Positions 11,790 through 62,400 of a stretch of DNA of 64,000 nt are shown piece after piece. How positions within the stretch are numbered: the first letter of the stretch is position 1; the number at the start of each line of letters is the position of its first letter. The DNA comes from Mobula hypostoma (lineage: Eukaryota): NCBI RefSeq assembly GCF_963921235.1, contig NC_086097.1, positions 7,812,001-7,876,000 on the forward strand, given 5' to 3'. A model generated the notes under the pieces. The model made no database searches. It was given only the letters and a program-made list of their open reading frames with translations, and was not told where the DNA came from. A program made the position numbers and the translations under genes.

Positions 11790-14700
11790 CAGTGGCCACT
11801 GAGTGTAAGTTCATCTTCTGTTGCTGTAGTCCACCAAGTTCAAGTTTCGCTATGTTGTACATTCAGAGATGCTCTTCTGCCCACCACTGTTCTAACATGT
11901 GTTTACTTGAGTTAATGTCACCTTTCTGCCAGCTTGAACCAGCCTGGTCATTCGTCTCTGACTTCCCTCGTTAATAAAGCATTTTTACCCACAGAACTGC
12001 TGCTCACTGGAAGTTTTTTTTTGTTTCTCACACCATCCTCTGTAAACTCTAGAGACTGCTGTGTGTGAAAATCCTAGGAGATCAGCATTTTCTGAGAGAT
12101 GCAAATCATCCCATCTGACACTAACAACTCTTTCACAAAGTCACTTAGATCATATTTATTCTCCATCCTGATGTCTGGTCTGAACAACAACTGAACCTCT
12201 TGTCCATTGCCTGCATGTTTTTTATGCATTGAGTTGTTGCCATAAATTTACAAGGATGTTGCCAGGTATGGAGGACCTGAGTTAAAAGGAAAGTTTCAAT
12301 AGGTTAGGACTGTATTCTTCAGAACATAAAATATTGAGAGAAGAATTGATAGCGGAAAACAAAATTGTGAGGGGGATAGATAGGGTAAATGCAAGCAGGC
12401 TTTTTCCATAAGACCATAAGACGTAGGAGCAGGAGTAGGCCATTTGGCCCATTGAGTCTGCTTCATCATTTTTAATCGTGGCTGATCCTTTTCTTTCTCC
12501 TCCTCAACCCCATTTCCTGGCCTTCTCCCCGTAACCTTTCATGCCATGTCCAATCAAGAACCTTTCAATCTCTGCCTTAAATACACTTAATGACCTGGCC
12601 TCCACAGCTGCATGTGGTAACAAATTCCACAATTTCACCACCCTCTGGTTAAAGAAATTTCTCCACATCTCTATTGTGAATGGACGCCCTCTATCCTGAG
12701 ACTGTGCCCTCTTGTCCTAGACTCTCCTACCATGGGAAACATTCTTTTCACATCTACTTTGTCTAGGCCTTTCAACATTCAAAAGGTTTCAATGAGATCC
12801 CCCTTCAGCCTTCTAAATTCTGGTGAGTAAAGATCCAGAGCCATCAAACGTTCCTCATAGGATAACCCCTTCATTCCTGGAATCATCCTTGTGAACTTCC
12901 TCTGGACCCTCTCCAATGCCAGCACATCTCCTCTAAGATGAGGAGCCCAAAACTTTTCACAATACTCAAGGTGAGACCTCACCAGTGCCTTATAAAGCGT
13001 CAGCATCACATCCCTGCTCTTGTATTCTAGACCCCTTGAAATGAATGCTAACATTGCATTTGCCTTCCTCGCCACTGACTCAGCCTACAAGTTAACTTTT
13101 AGGGTGTTGTGCACAAAGACTCCCAAGTCCCTTTGCATCTCAGATTTTTGGATTTTTTTTTCCAATTCAGAAAATAGTCCACACATTTATTTCTACTATC
13201 AAAGTGCATGACCATGCATTTTTCAACATTATATTTCATTTGCCACTCTCGCGCCCATTCTGCTAATCTGTCTAAGTCCTTCTGCATCCTACTAGTTTCC
13301 TCAACACTACCGGCCCCTCCACCAATCTTTGGATCATCTGCAAACTTGGCAACAGAACCATCTATTCCATCATTTATATACAGCATAAAAAGAATGGTCC
13401 CAACACCAACCCCTGTGGAACACCACTAGTCACTGGCAGCCAGCCAGAAAAGGATCCCTTCATTTCCACTCACTGCTTCTTACCAATCAGCCAATGCTCT
13501 AACCATTTTTATAACTTTCCTGTAATACTGCAGGCTCTTAACTTGGTAAGCCACTTCATGTGTGACACCTTGTCAAAGGCCTTCTGAAGGTCCAAATATA
13601 CAACATCCACTGCATCCCTTTATCTATCCTACTTGTAATCTCCCCAAAGCATTCCAACGGGCTCATCAGGCAGGATTTTCCTTGAAGGAAACCATGCTGA
13701 CTTTGTCCTGTCTTGTCCTGTGTCACCAAGTACTTCATCACATCATCCTTAACAATTGACTCTAATATATTCCTAACCACTGTGGTCAGGCTAACTGGTC
13801 TATAATCTCTTTTCTGCTGTCTCCCTCCTTTCTTAAGGAGTGGAGTAACATTTGCAATTTTCCAGTCCTCTGGCACCATGCCAGAGTCCAATGACTTTTG
13901 AAAGATCATTTCTAATGCCACCACAATCTGTAACACTGCCTCTTTCAGAACCCTAGGGTGCAGTTCATTTGATCCAGGTGATTTATGTACTTTTACGTCT
14001 TTCAGCTTTTTGAGTACTTTCTCCCTTGTAACAGTAACTGCACCCACTTCTCTTCCTTCACACTACATCTGGCACACTGCTAGTGTCTTCCACAGTGAAG
14101 ACTGATGCAAAATACTCATTTAGTTCATCTGCCATCTCCTTGTCCACCGTTAATATTTCTCCTGCCTCATTTTCTAGCAGTCCTATATCTACTTTCATCT
14201 CTCTTTTATTTTTTACACATGAAAAAACTTTTACTATCCACCTTGATATTATTTTCTAGCTTGCTTTTGTAGTTCATCCTTCTCTTCTAATGATAATTTT
14301 AATTAGTCTCTGTAGATTTTTAAAATCCTCTATCCAATCTTCTATCATCCCACTAATTTTTATTTTGATGTATGCCCTCTCTTTTGTTTTTACGTTAGCT
14401 TTGAATTCCCTTCAGCTATGGTTTTACTATTATGCCATTTGAGTATTTCTTCATTTTGGAATACACGTGTCTTGAACCTTCCTGATTTTTCCCAGAAACA
14501 TACAACATTGCTGCTCTGCTGACATCCCTGCCAGCAGCTCCTTCCAATTTACTTTGTTCAACTCCTCTCTTACTACTGTAATTTCCCATACTCCACTGAA
14601 ATACTGCTGCATCAGACGTTACTTTCTCCCTATCAAATTTCAAGTTGAACTCAATCATATTGTGATCACTGGCTCCTAAGGGTTCTTTTACCTTAAGCTC

Positions 14701-15668
14701 CATAATCACCTCCGGTTCATTACATAACACCCAATCCGGTATAGGTGATCCCCTATTAGGTTCAGTGACAAACTGCTCTAAAAAGCCATCTCTTAGGCAT
14801 TCAACAAACTCATTCTGTTGAGATCCATTACCAACTTGATTTTCCCAATCGACCTGCATGTTAAAATCTCCCATGACTAGCATAACATTGCCCTTTTAAC
14901 ACGCTTTTTCAATTTCCACAGAGTCTGGATTCAACTACAACCAGAAGACATGGCTTAAGAGTGAAAGATGAGAAGTTAAAGGGGAACATGAGGGGGAACT
15001 TCTTCACTCAGAGAGTCGTGAGAGTGTGAAATGAGCTGCCAGCACAAGTGGTCCATGCGACCTCAATTTGAATGCTTAAGAGAAGTTTGGATACCGACAT
15101 GGATAGCAGGGCTATAGAGGGCTATGGTCGATGTGCGGGTCGATGGGAGTAGACAGGTTAAGCGGTTCGGCCTGGACTAGATCAGAATCAGGTTTATTAT
15201 CACCGGCATGTGACGTGAAATTTGTTAACTTAGCAGCAGCAGTTCAATATAATACATAATCTAGCAGAGTGAAAAAAATAATAAAATAAAAATATTATTA
15301 ATAAACAAGTAAATCAATTACATATATTGAATAGATTTAAAAAACATGCAGAAACAGAAATATTATATATTTTTTAAAAAGTGAGGTATTGTCCAAAGAT
15401 TCAATGTCCATTTAGGAATCAGATGACAGAGGGGAAGAAGCTGTTCCTGAATCGCTGAGTGTGTGCCTTCAGGCTTCTGTACCTCCTACCTGATGGTAAC
15501 AGTGAGAAAAGGACATGCCCTGGGTGCTGGAGGTCCTTAATAATTGACGCTGCCTTTCTGAGACACCGAAGGGCCTGTTTCTGTGCTGTGTTTCTCTACA
15601 GCTGGCTGATTAAATATTTGTATTAACAAACAGATGTACAGGTGTACCTAATGAAGTGGCCACTCAGT
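11790..15668. mobile_element. Tc1-type non-autonomous element (11790-12243 + 15600-15668) hosting nested CR1 and Rex1 insertions
   Basis: Ends agtggccact.. / ..ggtgtacctaatgaagtggccactcagtata. The text breaks at gagttgttgcca and resumes at gctggctgatt. Confidence 0.6.
12411..14918 (-). mobile_element. CR1 LINE, 5'-truncated, disrupted ORF2 (APE + RT)
   Basis: GDFN...SDHN (APE); YRPVSLT, QHGF, KFADD (RT); LVRSHLEYC; (cttatggt)n tail. Confidence 0.93.
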
Positions 15669-39110: not shown

Positions 39111-41058
39111 GCCAAACCAAAGTAATTATTCAATTGGTCTGCCATGTCCTTGCTCACCATAATCAATTCACCTGTTTCTGTCTGCAGGGGACCTACATTT
39201 GTCTTTACCAGTCTTTTCCTTTTTACATATCTATAAAAGCTTTTACAGTCCGTTTTTATGTTCCCTGCCAGTGTTCTCTCATAATCTTTTTTCCCCTTCC
39301 TAATTAAGTCCTTTGTCCTCCTCTGCTGAACTCTGAATTTCTCCCAGTCCTCAGGTGAGCCACTTTCTCTGGCTAATTTGTATGCTTCTTCTTTGGAATT
39401 GATACTATCCCTAATTTCTCTTGTCAGCCACGGGTGCACTACCTTCCTTGATTTATTCTTTTGCCAAACTGGGATGAACAATTGTTGTAGTTAGTTAGTT
39501 AGTTAGAGTGCTTAAGGAAGTAGCCCAAGAAATAGTGGATGCATTAGTGATAATTTTTCAAAACTCGTTAGATTCTGGGCTAGTTCCTGAGGATTGGAGG
39601 GTGGCTAATGTAACCCCACTTTTTAAAAAAGAGGGAGAGAGAAACCGAGGAATTATAGACCGGTTAGCCTAACGTCGGTGGTGGGGAAACTGCTGGAGTC
39701 AGTTATCAAGGATGTGATAACAGCACATTTGGAAAGCAGTGAAATGATCGGACAAAGTCAGCATGGATTTGTGAAAGGAAAATCATGTCTGACGAATCTC
39801 ATAGAATTTTTTGAGGATGTAACTAGTAGAGTGGATAGGGGAGAACCAGTGGATGTGGTATATTTGGATTTTCAAAAGGCTTTTGACAAGGTCCCACACA
39901 GGAGATTAGTGTGCAAACTTAAAGCACACGGTATTGGGGGTAAGGTATTGGTGTGGGTGGAGAATTGGTTAGCAGACAGGAAGCAAAGAGTGGGAATAAA
40001 CGGGACCTTTTCAGAATGGCAGGCGGTAACTAGTGGGGTACCGCAAGGCTCAGTGCTGGGACCCCAGTTGTTTACAATATATATTAATGACTTGAATGAG
40101 GGAATTAAATGCAGCATCTCCAAGTTTGCGGATGACACAAAGCTGTGTGGCAGTGTTAGCAGTGAGGAGGATGCTAAGAGGATGCAGGGTGACTTGGATA
40201 GGTTGGGTGAGTGGGCAAATTCATTGCAGATGTAATTTAATGTGGATAAATGTGAAGTTATCCACTTTGGTGGCAAAAATAGGAAAACAGATTATTATCT
40301 GAATGGTGGCCGATTAGGAAAAGGGGAGGTGCAACGAGACCTGGGTGTCATTATACACCAGTCATTGAAAGTGGGCATGCAGGTACAGCAGGCGGTGAAA
40401 AAGGCGAATGGTATGCTGGCATTTATAGCGAGAGGATTCGAGTACAGGAGCAGGGAGGTACTACTGCAGTTGTACAAGGCCTTGGTGAGACCACACCTGG
40501 AGTATTGTGTGCAGTTTTGGTCCCCTAATCTGAGGAAAAACATCTTTGCCATAGAGGGAGTACAAAGAAGGTTCACCAGATTGATTCCTGGGATGGCAGG
40601 ACTTTCATATGAAGAAAGACTGGATGAACTGGGCTTGTACTCATTGGGATTTAGAAGATTGAGGGGGGATCTGATTGAAATGTATAAGATCCTAAAGGGA
40701 TTGGACAGGCTAGATGCAGGAAGATTGTTCCCGATGTTGGGGAAGTCCAGAACGAGGGGTCACAGTTTGAGGATAAAGGGGAAGCCTTTTAGGACCGAGA
40801 TTAGGAAAAACTTCTTCACACAGAGAGTGGTGAATCTGTGGAATTCTCTGCCACAGGAAACTGTTGAGGCCAGTTCATTGGCTATATTTAAGAGGGAGTT
40901 AGATATGGCCCTTGTGGCTACGGGGGTCAGGGGGTATGGAGGGAAGGCTGGGGCAGGGTTCTGAGTTGGATGATCAGCCATGATCATAATAAATGGCGGT
41001 GCAGGCTCGAAGGGCCGAATGGCCTACTCCTGCACCTATTTTCTATGTTTCTATGTTT
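39111..41058 (+). mobile_element. Young CR1 with inverted 5' segment (39111-39490 minus; 39505-41058 plus)
   Basis: RT motifs QHGFVKGKSC, DFQKAFDKV, GVPQGSVLGP, KFADD on the plus strand. Upstream linker (KTDCKSFYRYVKRKR) on the minus strand. Candidate TSD CTAAAAT. Confidence 0.92.
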
Positions 41059-44080: not shown

Positions 44081-44155
44081 GTGTTAGTTCAATGAGCTGA
44101 ATGTGCAGGAGGACAGTACAACAGGAAGCGGGTATTCATTCGAAGTACATTTACT

Positions 44156-44612
44156 GTTGTTGTTGTTGTTCATCCATCGTTGACATCGATGAGGACCTCG
44201 ACATCATTATGATGGTGTCGAGACTAGCGCGTGATTTGGATTTAAGTGAGGGAGAGTTGCGCAGCGTCAACCTCACTCTCTCTTCCCAATTCCCATCTGG
44301 ATCCAGTGGCAAGACAGAGTCTAGACGGCTGGAGATGGGACTAGGCACAGTGGATGACCAGGACGTCTTCTGTGTCTTGTCCTGCTCTACACGTTCCACG
44401 ACACTTGCAGAGGCCGCCTTCTTGACCGTTGGACCTTCCATTGGTCTCGTCCGCTCAAACCGCCGGAGTCTGTCTTCGCATGCTGGGATAGACAACTCCC
44501 TATCTCACCGAGGGTTTGAGACCCGTCGGCTACCCTCACCTGGTTTAGCCGGCTTGTCAAAGCCGTTGCCCAGGGTGTGGCCGCTGTCACATGCAAACAG
44601 CTACGGGGAGCC
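44156..44612 (-). mobile_element. Ribozyme-headed non-autonomous retroelement, copy 1 (5'-truncated inside the ribozyme)
   Basis: (caa)n 3' tail. 9-bp TSD ACATTTACT at 44147-44155 and 44613-44621. Near-identical to 58939-59392. Confidence 0.88.
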
Positions 44613-44959
44613 ACATTTACTATCATAGTACGTATATATCACCATATCCTACCCTGAGACACATTCTATTGTGAGCATTCACAGCAGAGCAAGGAAACAC
44701 AATAAAATCGATGAAAAACTACACACAAAGACCGGTAAACATCAAATGTATAAAAGAAAAAGAAGAAAATACAATAAAAACAAAAATAAATAAATTGTCA
44801 TTAAATGATACTGACAGCATGACTTGTAGTGTCTTTGAAATTGAGTCCATAGGTTGTGGAATCAGATCCGAGTGTTGAGATGAGTGAGTTATCCTCACTG
44901 GTTCAGGAAGTTAGGCTGGAGAAATGATAACATAACAATTTGGACTCTGTCTCTAATGA

Positions 44960-49109: not shown

Positions 49110-52057
49110 TCCCACTGACCTGCACACGGACCATATCCCTCCATACACCTCCCAGCCATGTATCTGTCCAATTTATTCTTAAATGTTAAAAAAGAACCCG
49201 CATTTACCACCTCGTCTGGCAGCTCATTCCATACTCCCACCACTCTCTGTGTGAAGAAGCCCCCCTAATGTTCCCTTTAAACTTTTCCCCCCTCACCCTT
49301 AACCCACGTCCTCTGGTTTTTTTCTCCCCTTGCCTCAGTGGAAAAAGCCTGCTTGCATTCACTCTATCTATACCCATCATAATTTTATATACCTCTATCA
49401 AATCTCCCCTCATTCTTCTACACTCCAGGGAATAAAGTCCTAACCTATTCAACCTTTCTCTGTAACTGAGTTTCTCAAGTCCCGGCAACATCTTTGTAAA
49501 CCTTCTCTGCACTCTTTCAACCTTATTTATATCCTTCCTGTAGTTTAGTGACCAAAACTGAACACAATACTCCAGATTCGGCCTCACCAATGCCTTATAC
49601 AACCTTATCATAACATTCCAGCTCCTATACTCAATACTACGATTAATAAAGGCCAATGTACCAAAAACTCTCTTTACGACCCTATCTACCTGTGACGACA
49701 CTTTTAGGGAATTTTGTATCTGTATTCCCAGATCCCTCTGTTCCACTGCACTCCTCAGTGCCTTACCATTAATCCTGTATGTTCTATGTTGGTTTGTCCT
49801 TCCAACGTGCAATACTTCACACTTGTCAGTATTAAACTCCATCTGCCATTTTTCAGCCCATTTTTCCAGCTGGTCCAAGTCCCTCTGCAGGCTCTGAAAA
49901 CCTTCCTCACTGTCCACTACACCTCCAATCTTTGTATCATCAGCAAATTTGCTGATCCAATTTGCCACATTATCATCCAGATCATTGATATAGATGACAA
50001 ATAACAATGGACCCAGCACTGATCCCTGTGGCACACCACTAGTCACAGGCCTCCACTCAGAGAAGCAATTTTCTACCACCACTCTCTGGCTTCTTCCATC
50101 GAGCCAATGTCCAATCCAATTTACCACCTCTCCATGTATACCTAGCGAATGAATTTTCCTAACTAACCTCCCATGCGGGACCTTGTCAAAGGCCTTACTG
50201 AAGTCCATGTAGACAATATCCACTGCCTTCCCTTCATCCACTTTCCTGGTAACCTCCTCGAAAAACTCCCAACAGATTGGTCAAACATGACCCACCACGC
50301 ACAAAGCCATGTTGACTCTCCCTAATAAGCCCCTGTCTATCCAAATGCTTGTAGATTCTGTCTCTTAGTACTCCCTCCAATAACTTACCTACTACTGACG
50401 TTAAACTCACCGGCCTATAATTTCCCGGATTACTTTTCGATCCTTTTTTAAACAACGGAACAACATGAGCCACTCTCCAATCCTCCGGCACTTCACCCGT
50501 AGACAGCGACATTTTAAATATTTCTGCCAGGGCCCCCGCAATTTCAACACTAGTCTCCTTCAAGGTCCGAGGGAACACCCTGTCAAGTCCCGGGGATTTA
50601 TCCACTTTAATTTTCCTCAAGATAGCAAGCACCTCCTCCTTTTCAATCTGTACAGTTGCCATGGTCTCACTACTTGATTCCCTCAATTCCATAGATCTCA
50701 TGCCAATTTCCTTAGTAAATACAGACGCAAAAAGCCTATTTAAGATCTCCCCCATTTCCTTTGGTTCCGCACAAAGCCAACCACTCTGATCTTCAAGAGG
50801 ACCAATTTTATCCCTTACAATCCTTTTGCTCTTAATATACCTGTAAAAGCTCTTTGGATTATCCTTCACTTTGACTGCCAAGGCAACCTCATGTCTTCTT
50901 TTTGCCCTCCTGATTTCTTTCTTAAGTATATTCTTGCACTTCTTATACTCCTCAAGCACCTGATTTTCCCCCTGTTTCCTATACATTTCATACAACTCCC
51001 TCTTCTTCTTTATCAGAGTTGCAATATCCCTTGAGAACCAAGGTTCCTTATTCCTATTCAATTTGCCTTTAATCCTGACAGGAACATACAAACTCTGCAC
51101 TCTCAAAATTTCCCCTTTGAAGGCTTCCCACCTACCAATCACATCTTTGCCAGAGAACAACCTGTCCCAATCCACGCTTTTTAGATCCTTTCTCATTTCT
51201 TCAAATTTGGCCTTCTTCCAGTTCAGAACCTCAACCCTAGGACCAGATCTATCCTTGTCCATGATCAAATTGAAACTAATGGCGTTATGATCACTGGAAC
51301 CAAAGTGCTCCCCTACACAGACTTCCGTCACTTGCCCTAATTCGTTTCCTAACAGGAGATCCAATATTGCATCCCCTCTAGTTGGTCCCTCTATATACTG
51401 ATTTAGAAAACTTTCCTGAACACATTTTACAAACTCTAAACCATCTAGACCCCTAACAGTATGGGAGTCCCAATCAATGTATGGAAAATTAAAATCCCCT
51501 ACCACCACAACTTTATGTTTCCTGCAGTTGCCTGCTATCTCTCTGCAGATTTGCTCTTCCAAGTCTCGTTGACTATTGGGTGGTCTGTAATACAATCCCA
51601 CTAATGTGGCCATACCTTTCCTGTTTCTCAGCTCCACCCATAAGGACTCAGTAGACAAGCCCTCTAATCTGTCCTGCCTGAGCACTGCTGTAATATTTTC
51701 CCTAACAAGCAATGCTACTCCCCCACCTTTCATTCTTCTGCCTCGATCACATCTGAAACATCGGAACCCTGGAATATTAAGCTGCCAGTCCTGCCCCTCC
51801 TGTAGCCAAGTTTCACTAATTGCTACAACATCATAATTCCACGTGTCATTCCACGTGTCAATCCACGCTCTCAACTCATCCGCCTTCCCCGCAATACTCC
51901 TAACATTGAAATATATACACCTCAGAAGATTTTTACCACCACTCACAACCTTTCTATCAGCGGATTTGCTTAAACTTTCAACATCACTTATTTTCACCCC
52001 AGCCACACTGTCAGCTCTGGCACTCTGGTTCCCATTCCCCTGCAAATCTGGTTTAAA
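49110..52057 (-). pseudogene. CR1 ORF2p (APE endonuclease + reverse transcriptase), frameshifts near ~50265 and ~49260
   Basis: YFNVRSI, SETWL, YYRPP, GDFN, SDHN; YRPVSLTS, DFSKAFDKV, PQGSVLGP, FADD. Confidence 0.92.
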
Positions 52058-52970
52058 GCCTCCCCAATAGCACTAACAAACCTCCCTGAAAGGATATTGG
52101 TCCCCCTGTGGTTCAAGTGTAACCCGTCTCTCTTGTACAGGTCCCACCTGCCCCAGAAGAGGTCCCAATGATCCTGAAATCTGAAACCCTGCCCCCTACA
52201 CCAGTTCCTCAGCCACTTGTTCCTCCTCCAGAGCATCCTATTCTTACCCTCACTGGCACCTAGCACAGGTAGCAATCCTGAGATTACCACCCTTGAGGTC
52301 CTGCTTTTCAACTTCCTACCAAGCTCTCTATACTCACTGCCCAGGACCTCTTCACTCTTCCTTGCTATGTCATTGGTGCCTATGTGCACCACGACATCTG
52401 GCTGGTCACCCTCCCACTTCAGAATGTCATGCAATGGATCAGAGACATCCTTGACCCTGGCACCTGGGAGGCAACAAACCATCCTGGATTCTCTGTCACG
52501 ACCACAGAACCTCCTATCTGCACCTCTAACTATCGAGTCCCCTATCACTACCGCTCTCCTCTTTTTCCCCCCTCCCTTCTGCACTGCAGAGCCAGACTCA
52601 GTGCCAGAGATCCGGCTACTGCAGCTAGTCCCAGGTAAGTCATCCCCCCCAACAGTATCCAATGAGGTATACTTGTTGCTGAGGGGAATGGCCACAGGTG
52701 AACCCTGCTCTGCCTGTCCTTTCCTCTTCCCTCGCCTGACAGTGACCCAATTTCCTGTCCTCTGCTCCTTTGGCGTAACTACCTCCCTGTAGCTACGATC
52801 TATAATCTCCTCATTCTCCCGAATGATCCGCAGGTCATCCAGCTCCTGCTCCAGTTCCCTAACGCGGTTTGTCAGGAGCTGCAGCTGGATGCACTTCTTG
52901 CAGGTGTCGTTGTCAGGGACACCGGAGGGCTCCCTGACTTCCCACATCCTGCAAGAGGAGCATTCCAACA
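51994..52970 (-). CDS. CR1 ORF1p: zinc finger, coiled coil, SGNH/GDSL esterase domain
   Basis: CSSC..CKKC; LTNRVRELEQELDDL; VVIGDSIVRG, VVHIGTNDI, DGLHLN. Confidence 0.9.
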
Positions 52971-54455
52971 TCTTGAGAGAAGTTGCTGAAGAAATAACGG
53001 ATGCATCGGTCATGATCTTTCAAGAATCACTTGATTCTAGCATGGTTCCAAAAGACTGGAAATTGCAAATGTCAATCCACTCTTTAAGAAGGGAAGAAGA
53101 TGAAATAAAGGAAAGAAAGGCCATTTAGCCTATCTTCAGTGGTTGGGAAAGTGTTGGAGTCTATTATTAAGGATGAGGTTTCGAGATACTTGGAGTCTAA
53201 TGGTAACGCAAGTCAAAGTCAGCATGGTTTCTGTTTAGGGAAATCTTGCTTAACAAAACTGTTAGAATTTTACAAGGAAGTAACGAGTGTTGGGAGGGGG
53301 GTGGGTGCAAAGGAGAGACAATAGATGTCATTTACTTGGATTTTCACAAGGCATTTGATAAAGTGCTACACATGAGGCTGCTTAGCAAGATAAAATCTCA
53401 TAGCATTACAGGAAAGATACTGGCATGGATAGAGGAATGGCTGACAGGCAGGAGGCAGTGAATGGGAATAAATGGGTCTTTTCTGGTTGTCAGTGACTAA
53501 TGAAGTTCCGCAGGGGTCGGTGTTGGAAAAGTTTGTGGCAAAGTTTGCAGATGATATGAAAGTAGGTGGAGAGTTAGGTAGTGCTGAGGAAGCAAATTGC
53601 AGAAGGACTAAGACAAATTGGAAGAATAGACAAAAAAGCGGCAAATGGAATAGAGTGTTGGGAAATATATTATAAAGGAACAAAAGTGCTGGTAATTATC
53701 TAAATGAGGACAAAATTCAAACATCAGAGGTGCAGAGGGCATTCGGAGTCCTCGTGCAAGACTCCCAGAAGGTTACTTTACAGGGTGAGTCTGTGAGAAA
53801 GAAGGCAAGTGCAATGTTGGCATTCATTTCAAGGGGAATAGAATATAAAAACAAGGAGAAAATGCTGAGGCTTTATAAGACAATAATCAGACTGCACTTG
53901 GGGTATTGTCAACAGTTTTGGGCCCCATAGCTCAGAAAATATGTGTTGTCATTGCAGAACGCCCAGAGGTGGTTCAGGAGGATGATTCTGGTAATGAAGG
54001 GGTTAACACGCGAGTAGCATTTGGCAGCTTTGGGTCTGTACTCACAGGAATTTAGAAGAATGAGGGGAGATCTTATTGAAACCTACTGAATGTTGAAAGG
54101 ACTAGATAAGGTGGATGCGGAAAGGATGTTCCCTGTGGTGGGATTGTCCAGGACTAGAGGGCACAGCCTCAAAATTGAGGGGTGACCCATTAGAACAGAG
54201 GTAAGGAGGAATATTTTTAGCCAGAGAGTTGTGAATCTGTGGAATGCTCTGTCACAGACATCTGTGAAGGCCAAGATATTGGGTATATTGAAAGCAAAAA
54301 TTGATAGTTTCCTAATTGGTCAGAGCATCAAAAGTTATGGCAAGAAGGCAGGTCTTTGGAATTGAGTGAGTTCTGGGATCAGCCATGATGGAATGGTGGA
54401 GCGGACTCAATGGGCTGAATGGCCTAATTCTGCTCTATGTTTTATGGTCTTATGA

Positions 54456-56470: not shown

Positions 56471-58938
56471 TCGTGAGGGTGAGGGACTCGGATGTACTCT
56501 GTTCTTTCAGGAAACTATTTTCCTACCTTGAATGGCCTTGATATGCTCTCTTGATTTTAACATCCACATTATCTCCCCTCTCATATCTTTTCTTTGTGGG
56601 TAGATTATTCCATAGCTTTCATAACTCCAAGGAAAGCAGTGCAATATTCTCATAATCTGAGGCCCATTTTATCTACACATTTGATGTGGCATGATGTCAT
56701 TTAAAACAGTATTTTACTCAATGTGTCCTCTCCCTCAAGTCACACCGTGATACTTGTCCTCTCTTTCTGTGATGCTGTGTGCAAGCTGTGTACGAAGCAG
56801 TTCAGAATCAGAATCAGGTTTATTATCACCAGCATGTGTAGTGAAATTTGTTAACTTAGCAGCAGCAGTTCAATGCAATGCATAATGTAGAAGAAAAAAT
56901 GTAAAAATAAATAAGTAAATCAATTACAGTATATATATATTGAATAGATCAAAAATCATGCAAAAATAGAATTAATGTATATTAAAAGTTGAGTTTGAGT
57001 GTAATCTTCAGAATTAATCAAAGTGCTGAGTATTTGGCTGGGATACAGTGATCCAGTGATTGGAGGATCTGAGGAAATGGACGAATCTGTATTAACATGC
57101 ATACTTTAATTTAGAGAATGTCTGATTACTTTTTTCAACAACGTTGAGGTTAAATGTCAATTTCTTTGCTTGGCAGTGATATGAGACAGTGGGTCATTTG
57201 TCTATTACAGGCTGTGTTATCATGCTGACAGTAATATTGCAAAATAGGTCACTCATCTGTCAATTTCATCCCTTGAGGAGGAACATGGGAGAGTAGATTG
57301 CTCATTTGTTACAGTCAATTTCATAACCCAGGTAGCGGATGGCATGTCTGTTACAGTACACATCTGCCATAATTTGACTTTAAAGAATGGCGATCCAACT
57401 GTTTAAAATTCATCAGCTCCTGCCTCCTGACGTACTGCTCACCAGTTTCATGTTAGGCAGTTTCCCTAAGTATTCAGTTACTCACTGCCTTACTTAAACA
57501 AAAATTAAGCAAACATTTAAGCAAAATAATGCTTACTTAAGCAAAAAAAAGCAAAAATTACTTACTAATTTAAACCTATCACCCCAACTGAGGCATAGGC
57601 TGCCAATAGTAGTTTGCCAGAGTCCTCTATCCTGGGCCAGTCTTTCATGTTGTCTACAGGGGTAGCATATCATCCTGTCCTGGTGTATCTTTGCTCTCTT
57701 GGACATGGAGTCTTTGGAGATTCTCCTGGCGTTTCTGTAGCACTGGGTTTTTATGAGCTGAGGTGGCTAGCTCCATGCCAAACCCTCCTGATTTCACGGC
57801 GGGGCTGGGAACATAAGACCACAGAAGTAACTTTAGGCCGTTTGGCCTGTCAAGTCTGCTCCACCATTCAATTATGGGTGATCCTTTTTTTACCTCCTCA
57901 GCCACATTCCCTGGTCTTCTCCCATAACGTTTGATGCCACATCCAATCAGGAACCTATCAAGATCTGCCTTAAATACACCAAATTACCTGGCCTCCACAG
58001 CCGCCTGTGGTAATAAATTCCACAAAATCACCACCCTCTGGCTAAAGAAATTTCTCCATATCCCTGATTTAAAAGGACATCCCTCTATTCTGAGGCTGTG
58101 CCCTCTTGTCCAAGGCTCACCCACCATGGGAACCATTATTTCCACATCTACTTTGTCTAGGCCTTTCAACATTTGAAAGACTTCAATGAGATTCCACCTC
58201 ATCCTTCTAAATTCCAGTAAGTACAGACACAGAGATATCAAACATTCCCTGTGTGATAAGTTTTTCATTCCTGGAATCATCCTTGTGAGCCTTCTCTGGA
58301 CCCTTTCCAACGCCAGCACATCATTTTTCAGATGGGGAGCCAACTACTATTCACAATACTCAAAGTGAGGCCTCTCCAGTGCCTTATAAAATCTCAGCAT
58401 CAAAAACATCCTTGCTCTTCTATTCTAGGTCTATTCTAGACCTCTTGAAATGAATGCTAGCATTGCATTTGCCTTCCTTACCCCCAACTGTACCTGCAAG
58501 TTAGCCTTTAGAATGTTCAGCATAAGGACTCCCAAATCCCTTTGCATCTCAGATATTTGGATTTTCTCCCCATTTAGAAAAAAGACTGCATATTTATTTC
58601 TTCTTCTAAAGTGCAAGGCCATATGTTTTCCAGCATTGTATTTCATTTGCCACTTTCTTGCCCATTCTCCAAAACCTAATCCTAATGAATGCGTGGCTGA
58701 GAGACTGGTGTAGGGGACAGGGCTTCAGATTCTTGGATAATTGGGATCTCTTCTGTGGGAAGTATGACCTGTTCAAAAAGGACAGGTTACACCTGAACCC
58801 GAAGGGGACCAATATCCTGGCGCGAAAGTTTAATAGAGCTGTTAGGGAGGGTTTAAACTCATTTGGCAGGGGGATGGGAACCGGAATGATAGACCAGAGG
58901 AAGGGGAAAACAGATATAAACCTAAGATAATGAGCAGT

Positions 58939-59437
58939 TGGTTGTTCGTCCATCGTTGACGTCGATGAGGACCTGGACACCATTATGATGGTGTCGAGAC
59001 TAGCGCATGATTTGGATTTAAGTGAGGGAGAGTTGCGCAGCATCAGCCTCACTCTCTCTTCTCAATTCCCATCTGGATCCAGTGGCAAGACAGAGACTAG
59101 ACGGCTGGAGATGGGACAAGGCGCAGTGGATGACCAGGACGTCTTCTGTGTCTTGTCCTGCTCTACACGTTCCATGACGCTTGCAGAGACCGCCTTCTTG
59201 ACCGTTGGACCTTCCATTGGTCTCGTCCGCTCAATCCGCCGGAGTCTGTCTTCACATGCTGGGATAGACAACTCCCTATCTCACCGAGGGTTTGAGACCC
59301 GTCGGCTACCCTCACCTGGTTTAGCCGGCTTGTCGAAGCCATTGCCCGGGGTGTGGCTGCTGTCGCATGCAAACAGCTACGGGGAGCCACAGGTGAGAAC
59401 TGAGTGCCAGGTGGGGACCAAAGGTGGACTAACCACA
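58939..59437 (-). mobile_element. Ribozyme-headed non-autonomous retroelement, copy 2 (almost full length)
   Basis: TSD TGAGCAGT at 58931-58938 and 59439-59446; inserted into the start of CR1 ORF2. Confidence 0.9.
59311..59437 (-). ncRNA. HDV-like ribozyme fold with L3 hairpin insertion
   Basis: P2 CUCACCUGU/AC(C)AGGUGAG; P3 GGC/GCC; L3 UCCCCGUA; GGGCAA; P4 UGGCUU-CGAC-AAGCCG; J4/2 GCUAA. Confidence 0.72.
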
Positions 59438-62400
59438 GTGAGCAGTAAAGATGTCAAGAAAGACAGGCAGGTGATGGGGCAAATTTGTAGCCATTGGGAT
59501 GAGTTGCAGTGCAATAAGGTTGCAGTGAAATCAAAGCGAAAAGTACCAAATACTGGCCTTAAGGTGTTATACGTAAATGCACGCAACATAAGGAATAAGG
59601 TGGATGATATTGTCGTACAGCTACAGATTGGCAGATATGATATTGTGGCCATCACTGAGATGTGGCGAAAGGATGTATGTCTCTGGGAGCTGAACGTCCA
59701 AGGATACACGGTGTATCAGAAGGATAGGAAGGTAGGCAGAGGGGGAGGCATGGCTTTATTGGTAATAAATGATATTGAATCATTAGAAAGAGGAGATATA
59801 GGATTGGAAGGTTCAGACACTTTATGGGTTGAGCTAAGAAATCGCAGGGGTAAAAGGACCCTGATGGCAGTTATTTATAGGCCTCCAAACAGCTGCAGTG
59901 ATGTGGACTACAAATTACAACAGGAAATAGAAAAGGCTTGTCAGAAGGGCAGTGTTATGATAATTGTGGGGGATTTTAACATGCGAGTGGATTGGGAAAA
60001 TCAGGTTGGCACTGGATCTCAAGAGAGAGAATTTGTCGAATGTCTGCGAGATGGCTTTTTAGAACAGCTTGTTGTTGAGCCCACTAGGGGATCAGCTGTA
60101 CTGGATTGGGTATTGTTTAATGAACTGGAGGTGATTAGAGAGATTGAGGTGAAGGAACCCTTAGGAGACAGTGATCATAACATGATTGAGTTCACTGTGA
60201 AATTTGAAAAAGGCAAGCCAAAGTCTGATGTGTTGGTATTTCAGTGGAGTAAAGGAAATTACAGTGGCATGAGAGAGGAACTGGCCAAAGTTGACTGGAA
60301 AGGGACACCGGCGGGAAAGATGGCAGAGCAGCAATGGCTGGAGTTTATGCGAGAAGTGAGGAAGGTGCAAGACAGGTATATTCCAAAAAAGAAGAAATTT
60401 TTGAATAGAAAAAGGATGCAACGGTGGTTGACAAGAGAAGTCAAAGCCAAAGTTAAAGCAAAGGAGAGGGTATACAAGGAAGCAAAAATTAGAGGGAAGA
60501 CGGAGGATTGGGAAGTTTTTAAAAGCTTACAAAAGGAAACTAAGAAGGTCATTAAGAGGGAAAAGATTAACTATGAAAGGAAGCTAGCAAATAATATCAA
60601 AGAGGATACTAAAAGCTTTTTCAAGTGAGAGTACATATAGACATAGAAAATGATGCTGGAGAAATTGTAATGGGAGATAAGGAGATGGTGGAGGAACTGA
60701 ACGAGTATTTTGCATCAGTCTTCACTGAGGAAGACATCAGCAGTATACCGGGCACTCAAGGGTGGCAGGGAAGAGAAGTGTGCGCAGTCACAATTACGAC
60801 AGAGAAAGTACTCAGGAAGCTGATTAGTCTAAAGGTAGATAAATCTCCTGGACCAGATGAAATGCACCCTTGTGTTCTGAAGAAAGTCGCTGTGGAGATT
60901 GCGGAGGCATTAGCGATGATCTTTCAAAAGTCAATAGATTCTGACATGGTTCTGGAGGACTGGAAGATTGCAAATGTCACTCTGCCATTTAAGAAGGGGG
61001 CAAGGAAGCAAAAAGGAATTTATAGACCTGTTAGCTTGACATTGGTGGTTGTGAAGTTGTTGGAGTCGATTGTCAAGGATGAGCTTACAGAGTACCTGGA
61101 GGCATATGACAAGATAGGCAGAACTCAGCATGAATTCCTTAAAGGAAAATCCTGCCTGACAAACCTATTGCAATTTTTTGAGGAAATTACAAGTAGGCTA
61201 GACAAGGGAGATGCAGTGGATGTTGTATGTGTCGATTTTCAGAAGGCCTTTGACAAGGTGCCACACATAAGGCTACTTAACAAGATAAGAGCCCATGGGA
61301 TTACGGGAAAGTTACATACGTGGATAGACCGTTGGCTGATTGGCAGGAAACAGAGAGTGGGAATAAAGGGATCCTATTCTGGTTAACTGCCGGTTACCAG
61401 TGGTTTTCCACAGGGGTCCGTGTTGGGGCTGCTTCTTTTTACATTGTACATCAACACTTTGGATTATGGAATAGATGGCTTTGTGGCTAAGTTTGCTGAC
61501 GATACGATGATAGGTGGAGGGGCCAGTAGTGCTGAGGAAACCGAGAGTCTGTAGAGAGACTTTGATAGATTGGAAGAATGGGCAAAGAAGTGGCAAACAA
61601 AATACAATGTTGGAAAGTGTATGGTTATGTACTTTCGCAGAAAAAATAAATGGGCAGACTATTATTTAAATGGGGAGAGAATTCAAAGTTCTGAGATGCA
61701 ATGGGACTTGGGGGTCCTCATACAGGATACCCTTAAGGATAACCTTCAGGTTGAGTCAGTGGTGAAGAAGGCAAATGCAATGTTGGCATTCATTTCTAGA
61801 GGAATAGAGTATAGGAGCAGGGATGTGATGTTGAGGCTCTATAAGGCGCTGGTGAGACCTCACTTGGAGTACTGTGGGCAGTTTTGATCTCCTTATTTAA
61901 GAAAGGATGTGCTGACGTTGGAGAGGGTGCAGAGAAGATTCACTAGAATGATACCGGGAATGAGAGGGTTAACACATGAGGAACGTTTGTCCTCTTTTGG
62001 ACTGTATTCCTTGGAGTTTAGAAGAATGAGGGGAAACCTCATAGAAACATTTCGAATGTTGAAAGGCATAGACAGAGTGGATGTGGCAAAGTTGTTTTCC
62101 AAGATGGGGGAGTCTAGTACGAGAGGGCATGACTTACGGATTGAAAGGCGCCCATTCAGAACAGAAATGCCAAGAAATTTTTTTAGTCAGAGGGTGGTGA
62201 ATCTATGGAATTTGTTGCCATGGGCAACAGTGGAGGCCAAGCCATTGGGTGTAGTTAAGGCAGAGATTGATGGGTATCTGAGTAGCCAGGGTATCAAAGG
62301 TTATGGTGAGAAGGCAGGGGAGTGGGACTAAATGGGTGAATGGATCATCTCATGACAAAACGGTGGAGCAGACTCGATGGGCCAAATGGCCGACTTCTGC

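What the first reader, a model, noticed from the sequence alone, without database searches (positions are those of the whole stretch)
59311..59437. HDV-like self-cleaving ribozyme with an extra hairpin inside L3, heading a ~500-nt non-coding retroelement
Seen on the minus strand, in HDV order: P2-5' CUCACCUGU (59397-59389), P3 GGC, L3 UCCCCGUA (HDV genomic L3 is UCCUCGCU; the U20/C21/C22/G25 equivalents are kept). Next comes a 20-nt insert GCUGUUUGCAUGCGACAGCA that forms its own GCUGU/ACAGC hairpin, then P3' GCC, P1' ACACCCC, and GGGCAA (identical to HDV G38-A43). It ends with P4 UGGCUU-CGAC-AAGCCG, J4/2 GCUAA (putative catalytic C at 59324) and P2' ACCAGGUGAG. The element's 5' end reads UGUGGUU, i.e. 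the last three bases of the expected P1 strand GGGGUGU, so this copy stops ~4 nt short of the predicted cleavage site. Known: R2, RTE and ingi/L1Tc elements use 5' HDV-like ribozymes to release themselves from host transcripts. Inference: this is a promoter-less SINE-like family processed by its own ribozyme. The L3 insertion is a variant that fixed-length descriptor searches would miss.
Basis: partly seen in the sequence, partly recalled or inferred. Interest (0 to 1): 0.82.

Follow-up and report, generated by a model that had tools for sequence, protein, structure and literature searches.

The report
Truncated retroelement carrying HDV-like ribozyme
This is a broken copy of a very abundant ray retroelement whose front end matches most of a hepatitis-delta-like self-cutting RNA with an unusual extra hairpin, although this particular copy has lost the piece it would need to cut.

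Summary

They lie in a 500-nt element at 59438..58939. It has 8-bp target-site duplications and a CAA-type tail, and is inserted in a CR1-like LINE. A second, shorter copy lies at 44612..44156.

The family gives more than 10,000 contigs per run in three coded organisms. Two devil-ray protein records match it.

Two related DNA loci (L001, L002) are full length. They start at the flank boundary with GGGGUGU or GGGGUAU, which pairs with ACACCCC or AUACCCC. This supplies the missing P1. Both-side changes occur in P1, P2 and P4. L002 runs into an APE endonuclease ORF, so the module is a LINE 5' UTR.

Those bases align to J1/2, and the copy lacks P1 and about 50-75 nt.

Rfam finds nothing, and activity is untested.

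Verdict: an inactive relic of a probable HDV-like ribozyme family, a new structural variant of a known kind.

The parts
58939..59438 (-). Copy A of the non-autonomous retroelement (500 nt), 5'-truncated.
   Evidence: TSDs read directly. Empty-site joint 58930>59439 skips 508 nt with 8 letters fitting both sides. 76% identity to L002 1348-1752 and 71% to L001 267-697 over most of its length.
59439..59446 (-). Upstream target-site duplication ACTGCTCA.
   Evidence: direct reading. The same 8-mer lies at 58931-58938.
58931..58938 (-). Downstream target-site duplication ACTGCTCA.
   Evidence: direct reading.
59398..59438 (-). Remnant of J1/2 (41 nt).
   Evidence: Aligns to the L002 J1/2 segment in A5. 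The family continues upstream differently from the window at 59426 and 59434.
59389..59397 (-). P2 5' strand CUCACCUG(U).
   Evidence: 8 Watson-Crick pairs with 59318-59311. Pair 6 changes C-G to A-U in L002.
59386..59388 (-). P3 5' strand GGC.
   Evidence: Pairs with 59357-59355. Invariant in 4 of 4 sequences.
59378..59385 (-). L3 catalytic-loop nucleotides UCCCCGUA.
   Evidence: UCC and the G at position 6 are kept in L001 and L002. Positions 4-5 are CC or AA (59381/59382).
59359..59377 (-). Extra hairpin inside L3 ('P3.1'): GCUGU, a 9-nt loop, ACAGC.
   Evidence: 100% of cells paired in 4 sequences. Codon-level U-A to G-C change in the Trp...Pro group.
59355..59357 (-). P3 3' strand GCC. 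Base 59358 is a 1-nt linker, A here and G in the family majority.
59348..59354 (-). P1 3' strand ACACCCC. It has no partner in this copy.
   Evidence: In L002 it pairs with GGGGUGU, and in L001 AUACCCC pairs with GGGGUAU.
59342..59347 (-). P1.1 GG (59347-59346) plus J1/4.
   Evidence: C-G pairs to L3 C59383 and C59384 in 3 of 4 sequences; L002 has one C.A.
59326..59341 (-). P4 hairpin.
   Evidence: 6 pairs. The family majority has C-G instead of U.G at 59341. Pair 2 is G-C here and U.G in L001.
59321..59325 (-). J4/2 GCUAA, with the putative catalytic C at 59324.
   Evidence: GGCUAAAC is identical in 4 of 4 sequences.
59311..59320 (-). P2 3' strand ACCAGGUGAG.
58976..58995 (-). 3' stem-loop GACACCAU-CAUA-AUGGUGUC, upstream of the tail. 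It is inferred to be the RT recognition module.
   Evidence: Direct reading. The last 60-80 nt of the element have no match to the L001/L002 5' UTRs. The function is inferred.
44156..44612 (-). Copy B, truncated inside P2 5'. It has a (CAA)n tail and the 9-bp TSD AGUAAAUGU at 44621-44613 and 44155-44147.

Best explanation
The segment is what remains of an HDV-like self-cleaving ribozyme at the 5' end of a 5'-truncated, non-autonomous retroelement. The element derives from the 5' UTR plus a short 3' module of an APE-type (RTE-like) LINE.

Proposed mechanism in full-length family members (inferred):
1. The element is transcribed as part of a longer host or read-through transcript.
2. The 5' heptamer GGGGUGU pairs with ACACCCC to form P1, across a structured J1/2 of about 80-110 nt.
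3. P2, P3, P1.1 and P4 complete the nested double pseudoknot.
4. The J4/2 cytosine (59324 equivalent) catalyses cleavage just 5' of G1. This releases an RNA that starts at the element's first base.
5. The LINE reverse transcriptase then copies this RNA from its CAA-repeat tail by target-primed reverse transcription. The copy often stops early.

L3 is not a closed loop. It is an 8-nt/1-nt internal loop capped by a conserved extra hairpin.

Copies A and B in this window lack the P1 5' strand, and B also lacks P2 5'. They are dead-on-arrival relics.

Shown here: the anatomy, the family size, the LINE link, the P1 strand at the 5' boundary in relatives, and the pair changes. Inferred: catalysis and the processing role.
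For: - Helices are at the stated coordinates.
- TSDs, tail, a second copy and empty-site contigs show a retroelement.
- 10,721, 11,713 and 11,739 contigs were laid from three DNA runs of three coded organisms.
- In 2 of 2 full-length DNA relatives, homology starts at the flank boundary with GGGGU(G/A)U. The complementary heptamer sits exactly between P3' and GG.
- On A5, 94.3% of 106 cells pair, against 24.5-52.8% when partners are slid.
- There are three genuine both-side changes: P1 pair 6 G-C to A-U, P2 pair 6 C-G to A-U, and P4 pair 2 G-C to U.G. The fourth counted change, at column 1, is an alignment artefact.
- Codon-level read-through translations agree. His/His (CAU/CAU) at P2 pair 6 occurs in 3 proteins. 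His at the 3' site never occurs with Pro at the 5' site: 0, against 18 Pro/Gln.
- Polymorphisms above 10% among the listed rows fall in L3 positions 4-5, the loops, the linker and the closing pair of P4. None of the listed rows falls in P1', P1.1, P2, P3 or J4/2 (21 rows were not shown).
- L002 continues into an APE ORF that is 60% identical to P0059, which has the Pfam domain Exo_endo_phos.
- J1/2 loops of 216-498 nt, and HDV-like ribozymes in RTE elements, are in print (PMC3774820 and PMC6765202; passages read).
Against: - No Rfam HDV-type model matches the window or L001/L002, even at E<=10.
- Only two full-length DNA relatives were obtained, so covariation rests on single events. The shuffle control is modest: 29 of 500 shuffles reach the covariation score.
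- The protein-level His/His cases look like one subfamily.
- MFE folding is not better than shuffles (z -1.55 and +1.21). The MFE of copy A uses a competing P2 strand.
- The ray family's own 5' end was not seen. Only 30 nt of loose-end consensus is available, and it has no GGGGUGU.
- 14 of 36 long read-through proteins begin with Gly-Cys-Gln/Met/Leu-Gly. This does not encode GGGGUGU at the homology start.
- L001 and L002 each carry two tandem copies of the 5' heptamer, so the exact cleavage site is ambiguous.
- An insertion in the active-site loop might abolish activity.
- No cleavage assay exists.
Confidence: 0.72

Rival explanations
1. An ancestral ribozyme that is now inert. The module descends from an HDV-like ribozyme of the parent LINE, but the hairpin in L3 or later changes have abolished catalysis. 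The ray family then spreads from transcripts whose 5' ends are made in some other way. The conserved structure would serve RT binding or translation rather than cleavage.
For: - The dominant ray variant at the site equivalent to an alternative P1 strand reads GGGGCAG, which gives only 4 pairs with ACACCCC.
- A ray subfamily replaces GGGCAAYG by GGUACACC (50-67 contigs).
- The Gly-Cys-Gln group carries a 9-18 nt leader upstream of any GGGGUG.
- There is no Rfam hit.
Against: - The catalytic-core letters (UCC..G in L3, GG, GGCUAAAC) are identical or nearly so in 4 of 4 DNA sequences at 71-76% overall identity.
- The P1 strand sits exactly at the element boundary in 2 of 2 full-length loci, with a compensated change.
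Confidence: 0.18
2. Chance resemblance. The segment is simply a structured, conserved 5' UTR, or a translated leader peptide, of a LINE. The HDV-like reading would then be pattern-matching.
For: - A loose descriptor without P1 hits 0.1 times per shuffled window.
- The sense frame is open through the module, and 78 database proteins translate it.
- In 4 proteins (P0058, P0059, P0071, P0079) it is in frame with the APE domain.
Against: - L001 and L002 have an in-frame UAA inside J1/4 (GGUAAAC and AGUAAAC), so the module is not coding there.
- All five helices occur in the HDV order, with P1 at the boundary and compensated changes.
- The 5' end of a non-LTR element is the known setting for such ribozymes (PMC3774820, PMC6765202).
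Confidence: 0.07
3. The minus-strand features are incidental, and the element is really a coding sequence on the plus strand. The frame is open through both copies.
For: - The plus-strand frame has 0 stops in 167 and in 149 codons in copies A and B. Only 27 of 2000 shuffles give 160 or more open codons.
- Two Mobula gene models include it.
Against: - The frame is not open in L001 or L002, where every antisense frame has 2-13 stops.
- Differences between A and B are spread 6/7/8 over the codon positions, with 8 synonymous and 13 non-synonymous.
- There is no Pfam match.
- The tail and the direction of truncation fit the minus strand.
Confidence: 0.03

Closest known systems
HDV-like ribozymes at the 5' ends of non-LTR retrotransposons (R2, R4/Dong, RTE, L1Tc)
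   Same: The order of strands is the same. There is a 7-bp P1 at the element's first base, a 3-bp P3, a 2-bp P1.1, and a C followed by N-A-A in J4/2. The J1/2 is long, and silkmoth R2 has loops of 216-498 nt. The role is release from a co-transcript (PMC3774820 and PMC6765202, passages read).
   Different: L3 is interrupted by a conserved 19-nt hairpin just before P3'. No Rfam model detects it. The host is a cartilaginous fish family with more than 10,000 contigs per run. The primary RTE paper (Ruminski 2011) could not be read here, so I cannot say whether any RTE ribozyme drawn there has such an L3.
R2 SIDEs and T. cruzi NARTc (non-autonomous, internally deleted elements that keep the parent's 5' ribozyme)
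   Same: These are short derivatives that keep the 5' ribozyme module and a 3' end used by the parent's RT (PMC3414825 and PMC3383444; listing and abstract starts only).
   Different: This element is not site-specific: its two copies have different targets and TSDs. The parent is an APE-type (RTE-like) LINE. The copy number is far higher. The link to the parent's 3' end was not tested.
HDV genomic and CPEB3 ribozymes
   Different: The J1/2 is long, L3 carries the hairpin, and the setting is a retrotransposon. GGGCAA is not conserved among relatives.

Membership tests
HDV-like self-cleaving ribozyme | All strands in the order P1-P2-P3-L3-P3'-P1'-P1.1-P4-J4/2-P2', giving a nested double pseudoknot. 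| tested here: met
   Met in the full-length relatives L001 and L002. In the window copies the P1 5' strand is absent, and copy B also lacks P2 5'. The window sequence itself therefore cannot form the fold.
HDV-like self-cleaving ribozyme | P1 of about 7 bp whose first nucleotide (G) is the first base after the cleavage site, which is the element's 5' end. | tested here: met
   L002 has GGGGUGU/ACACCCC and L001 has GGGGUAU/AUACCCC, each 7 of 7 pairs and each at the flank boundary. The site is ambiguous because both loci have a second tandem heptamer.
HDV-like self-cleaving ribozyme | A 3-bp P3, an L3 with U, CC and a G, and a 2-bp P1.1 between the L3 CC and the GG after P1'. | tested here: met
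   P3 is invariant in 4 of 4 sequences. UCC..G is kept in 4 of 4. P1.1 is C-G/C-G in 3 of 4, and L002 has one C.A.
HDV-like self-cleaving ribozyme | L3 is a short closed terminal loop (about 7-8 nt). | tested here: not met
   A 19-nt hairpin plus a 1-nt linker lies between the eighth L3 nucleotide and P3' in 4 of 4 sequences.
HDV-like self-cleaving ribozyme | A catalytic cytosine in J4/2 just before P2'. | tested here: met
   GGCUAAAC is identical in 4 of 4 sequences, with the C at 59324. Its chemical role was not tested.
HDV-like self-cleaving ribozyme | A match to a curated covariance model. | tested here: not met
   0 HDV-type matches at the gathering threshold in the window. None at E<=10 in 58600-59800 or in L001+L002.
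HDV-like self-cleaving ribozyme | Helices supported by compensatory change. | tested here: inconclusive
   There are three real both-side changes in 4 sequences. 29 of 500 shuffles reach the score. The number of independent events is too small.
HDV-like self-cleaving ribozyme | Site-specific, divalent-ion-dependent self-cleavage that is abolished by mutating the C. | not testable with these tools
   This needs a bench assay.
Non-autonomous non-LTR retroelement derived from an APE-type (RTE-like) LINE | TSDs, a 3' simple-repeat tail, variable 5' truncation and a high copy number. | tested here: met
Non-autonomous non-LTR retroelement derived from an APE-type (RTE-like) LINE | Sequence shared with the parent LINE. 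| tested here: inconclusive
   The 5' ~410-430 nt match the 5' UTR of L002, which runs into an APE ORF. No LINE 3' end was available, so the tail module is untested. 'RTE' is my recall of the APE motif; Pfam says only Exo_endo_phos. The window holds no such LINE: tblastn with P0059 gave 0 hits.

The most novel reading that the evidence does not exclude
The family defines a distinct structural subclass of HDV-like ribozymes. In it the active-site loop L3 is an internal loop capped by a conserved accessory helix, combined with a structured J1/2 of about 80-110 nt. The subclass would be shared by LINEs and their deletion derivatives in cartilaginous fishes and in records labelled as a fish tapeworm. 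It is invisible to current models and descriptors. The accessory helix would then be functional, for example as a folding aid or as a binding site for the element's RT, and not merely tolerated.
Probability: 0.3. Interest if true: 0.7.

Novelty: new variant of a known kind. Interest (0 to 1): 0.55.

Why it matters
HDV-like ribozymes are usually found with fixed-length descriptors and narrow covariance models. A vertebrate family with tens of thousands of contigs escapes both, which suggests the class is under-counted.

A conserved helix emerging from L3, the loop that builds the active site, gives a natural test of how much that loop tolerates. The family could also serve as a handle for engineering.

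It also explains how a promoter-less, very abundant ray repeat could obtain a defined 5' end.

For this locus alone the result is modest: it is an inactive truncated copy.

Tried and rejected
- Rfam at gathering and at E<=10 gave no HDV-type match.
- No whole genome is held for the window.
- Earlier-findings look-ups returned nothing.
- An exact 23-mer scan of the metagenome, genome and viral collections gave 0 hits.
- Two 20-nt motifs for the upstream continuation gave 0 hits in the window.
- No RNA holder was listed for the stretch. X15 is only a guessed RNA run, so nothing is said about expression.
- The antisense ORF was searched among shorter proteins: none found.
- The search for related loci on genome contigs gave L004 and L005. 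These are bacterial, with 15-21 matched residues. I dropped them as spurious without inspecting them.
- The search for related loci on viral contigs gave nothing.
- L003 shares only an L3-plus-hairpin-like stretch at 44% identity. I left it out of the alignment.
- MFE folding of L001 and L002 was uninformative.
- I considered an alternative P1 made of UGUGGCU (59391-59385) with AGCCACA (59358-59352). I rejected it as the ribozyme P1 because its topology puts P2 5' upstream of it. It remains a likely competing fold.
- I considered the site 'S2' in J1/2 (GGGUGUGG-like in the Leu-Gly-Val-Val-Arg group) as P1. I rejected it because elements continue upstream of it and it is not conserved.
- The papers Ruminski 2011 and Webb 2009 are not held.
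- Searches for an L3 insertion, or for fish or shark HDV-like ribozymes, found nothing relevant. Dfam and Repbase could not be searched.

Full report
**What is at the coordinates.**
- An 8-bp P2, 59397-59390 with 59318-59311.
- One unpaired U.
- P3, GGC with GCC.
- The eight L3 letters UCCCCGUA.
- A 5-bp hairpin with a 9-nt loop, then a one-base linker.
- ACACCCC, then GG plus GCAA.
- A 6-bp P4.
- GCUAA with the C at 59324.

The nested helices alone are worth -24.3 kcal/mol. The unconstrained MFE is -49.7 kcal/mol and uses a competing upstream strand (CACCUGG) for P2.

Rfam finds nothing at gathering thresholds in the 64 kb. It finds nothing HDV-like at E<=10 in 58600-59800.

A deliberately loose, post-hoc descriptor without P1 hits once in the window. 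It hits 0.1 times per dinucleotide shuffle: 4 of 40 shuffles gave one hit. The motif alone would therefore not be convincing.

**The element.**
The segment lies in a 500-nt insertion at 59438..58939.
- It is flanked by the 8-bp duplication ACTGCTCA (59446-59439 and 58938-58931) and ends in ...GAACAACCA.
- Contigs from public runs join 58930 directly to 59439. They skip 508 nt, with 8 letters fitting both sides, which is the empty site.
- The host sequence is a CR1-like LINE on the plus strand.
- A second copy at 44612..44156 is 95.3% identical over 451 nt. It has a 9-bp duplication and a (CAA)n tail, and it begins inside the P2 5' strand.
- The direction of truncation and the tail fix the element's sense as the minus strand.
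- No sense frame is open for more than 91 codons in copy A or 113 in copy B.

**Family size and variation.**
20 of the 24 listed runs hold part of the stretch, in 12 studies.

Laying four runs at 85% or more likeness placed 10,721, 11,713 and 11,739 contigs from three DNA runs of three coded organisms. It placed 255 from a run only guessed to be RNA.

Among the rows shown, differences above 10% inside the module are:
- 59341 U>C, the majority form. It turns the closing U.G of P4 into C-G.
- 59358 A>G, the linker.
- 59365 and 59335, both loop positions.
- 59381 and 59382 CC>AA, which are L3 positions 4-5.
- 59399.

None of the shown rows lies in P1', P1.1, P2, P3 or J4/2. However, 21 rows were not shown.

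The family continues upstream of the window copy in two ways:
- 72-84 contigs per DNA run diverge from the window beyond 59426.
- 19-25 contigs (in X1 and X2) keep GGUUAG and diverge beyond 59434.

A subfamily of 50-67 contigs (in X5 and X2) replaces GGGCAAYG by GGUACACC.

**Finding relatives.**
No genome is held, and exact-pattern scans found nothing.

The sense frame happens to be open through the module, so I searched its translation.
- Seven ENA proteins matched.
- A profile of these found 78 representatives.
- I treat these as read-through translations of related elements and not as real proteins. L001 and L002 have an in-frame UAA in J1/4.
- The antisense frame hit three proteins. Two are named by NCBI as uncharacterised proteins of Mobula hypostoma and M. 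birostris.
- Some representatives (P0058, P0059, P0071, P0079) run from the module straight into an APE endonuclease. P0059 has Exo_endo_phos at E 8.5e-11.
- P0059 and P0079 are labelled Schistocephalus solidus.

**DNA of full-length relatives.**
A core alignment (A4) found three metagenome loci.

L001 and L002 are homologous to each other from L001 182 / L002 1279 onward, at 75.7% over 1074 columns. They are unrelated upstream of that. They match copy A at 71% and 76%.

L002 continues into an ORF that is 60% identical to the APE start of P0059. The module is therefore the 5' UTR of a LINE. The ray element keeps that UTR plus about 60-80 nt of unmatched 3' sequence with a stem-loop. I call the LINE RTE-like from recall of its APE motif. 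The window itself holds no such LINE.

**P1 and the pair counts.**
In L002 the element starts, next to AT-rich flank, with GGGGUGU (1284-1290; an extra partial copy starts at 1264). ACACCCC lies exactly between P3' and the P1.1 position.

In L001 the first heptamer is GGGGUAU (178-184) and the partner is AUACCCC. A second GGGGUGU follows at 187-193.

On alignment A5, which holds L002, L001, copy A and copy B:
- 94.3% of 106 cells pair, against 24.5-52.8% when partners are slid by 1-3 columns.
- Four pairs are counted as changed on both sides. One of them, column 1, is an artefact of a stray A from my window slices.
- The real changes are P1 pair 6 (G-C to A-U), P2 pair 6 (C-G to A-U in L002) and P4 pair 2 (G-C to U.G).
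- The shuffle control is only moderate: 29 of 500 shuffles reach the covariation score.
- P3 and J4/2 do not vary.
- L001 has one A.G mismatch in P2, and L002 has one C.A in each of P1.1 and P4. This is expected for decayed copies.

**Codon-level checks on the read-through proteins.**
*P2 pair 6.* The pair is set by a Pro/His codon on the 5' side and a Gln/His codon on the 3' side. After removing three regex mis-hits by eye, the counts are 18 Pro/Gln, 10 Pro/Leu, 3 His/His and 3 His/Gln, with no Pro/His. The three His/His proteins look related, so this may be a single event.

*The fifth pair of the L3 hairpin.* It reads Cys...Thr (U-A) in 25 proteins and Trp...Pro (G-C, with a shorter loop) in 6. 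There are 2 Cys...Pro and no Trp...Thr. This too may be a single event.

*The 5' start of homology.* 36 proteins have 30 or more residues upstream of the P2 anchor.
- 6 contain Trp-Gly-Val (UGG GGN GUN) where homology begins.
- 2 contain Gly-Val-(Ser/Tyr/Phe)-Gly. Like Trp-Gly-Val, this can encode GGGGUGU.
- 14 begin Gly-Cys-(Gln/Met/Leu)-Gly, which cannot encode it at that point.
- 14 are unclear.

I cannot explain the Gly-Cys-Gln group.

**Consequence for the window copy.**
- Measured against L002, copy A lacks about 48 nt.
- Measured against the closest antisense relative P0008, whose His-Thr-Pro can encode the P1 strand, it lacks about 60 nt.
- Measured against L001, it lacks about 65-75 nt.

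Both window copies are therefore unable to form P1.

**Comparison with the literature.**
Passages in PMC3774820 state that:
- R2 ribozymes have J1/2 loops of 216-498 nt.
- The L3 G is highly conserved.
- Cleavage at the element's 5' junction is also seen for R4, L1 and RTE ribozymes.

PMC6765202 states that Baggins and RTE elements carry HDV-like ribozymes and lack their own promoters.

PMC3414825 (listing and abstract start only) describes internally deleted R2 derivatives that keep the ribozyme.

The primary RTE paper and Webb 2009 are not held. Two searches found no report of an HDV-like ribozyme with an interrupted L3, or of one in fishes. Dfam and Repbase could not be searched.

**Verdict.**
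The 5'-end detail is wrong. The two copies in this window are inactive relics, and catalysis remains to be shown.

Noticed in passing
window 58934-59440 (+) and 44101-44628 (+): The antisense frame is open through the whole element in both copies: 0 stops in 167 and in 149 codons. Only 27 of 2000 shuffles reach 160 or more open codons. The frame is part of two Mobula gene models. It is not open in L001 or L002, shows no codon-position bias (6/7/8 differences) and has no Pfam match.
   Followed up: yes
window 44612; proteins P0009, P0010: Copy B and the two Mobula records all lose homology within a few bases of the same point, just 5' of (C)UGUGGCUCC at the P2/P3 boundary. This could be a truncated master copy or an RT stop at a stable structure.
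   Followed up: no
L001 178-193; L002 1264-1290: Both full-length loci carry two tandem copies of the 5' terminal GGGGU(G/A)U(AU) motif. Several read-through proteins (P0017, P0035, P0056, P0063, P0074) imply the same. The mechanism is unknown, as is which copy serves as P1.
   Followed up: partly
proteins P0001-P0006, P0011-P0014 and others: A large group of relatives starts with one or two copies of a 9-nt unit read as Gly-Cys-Gln, upstream of a GGGGUG-like site. This does not fit cleavage at the element's first base.
   Followed up: partly
proteins P0059, P0079: The LINE form of the module, directly upstream of APE, is filed under the tapeworm Schistocephalus solidus, which is a parasite of fish. 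This suggests either horizontal transfer or host DNA in that assembly.
   Followed up: no
window 59339-59347 equivalents in runs X5, X2: A subfamily of 50-67 contigs replaces GGGCAAYG with GGUACACC. It keeps GG for P1.1 but alters J1/4 and the base of P4.
   Followed up: no
window 49204-53019 (-), 58606-61386 (+), 39627-40964 (+), 13556-14895 (-): There are several CR1-like LINE copies with ORF1, APE and RT fragments. Copy A sits at the ORF1/ORF2 junction of one of them, in antisense orientation.
   Followed up: partly
L003 797-850: A metagenome contig carries only a stretch resembling the L3-plus-hairpin part (CCAAGCAGCUGU..GCAUGC..) and has none of the other helices. Its meaning is unknown.
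   Followed up: no
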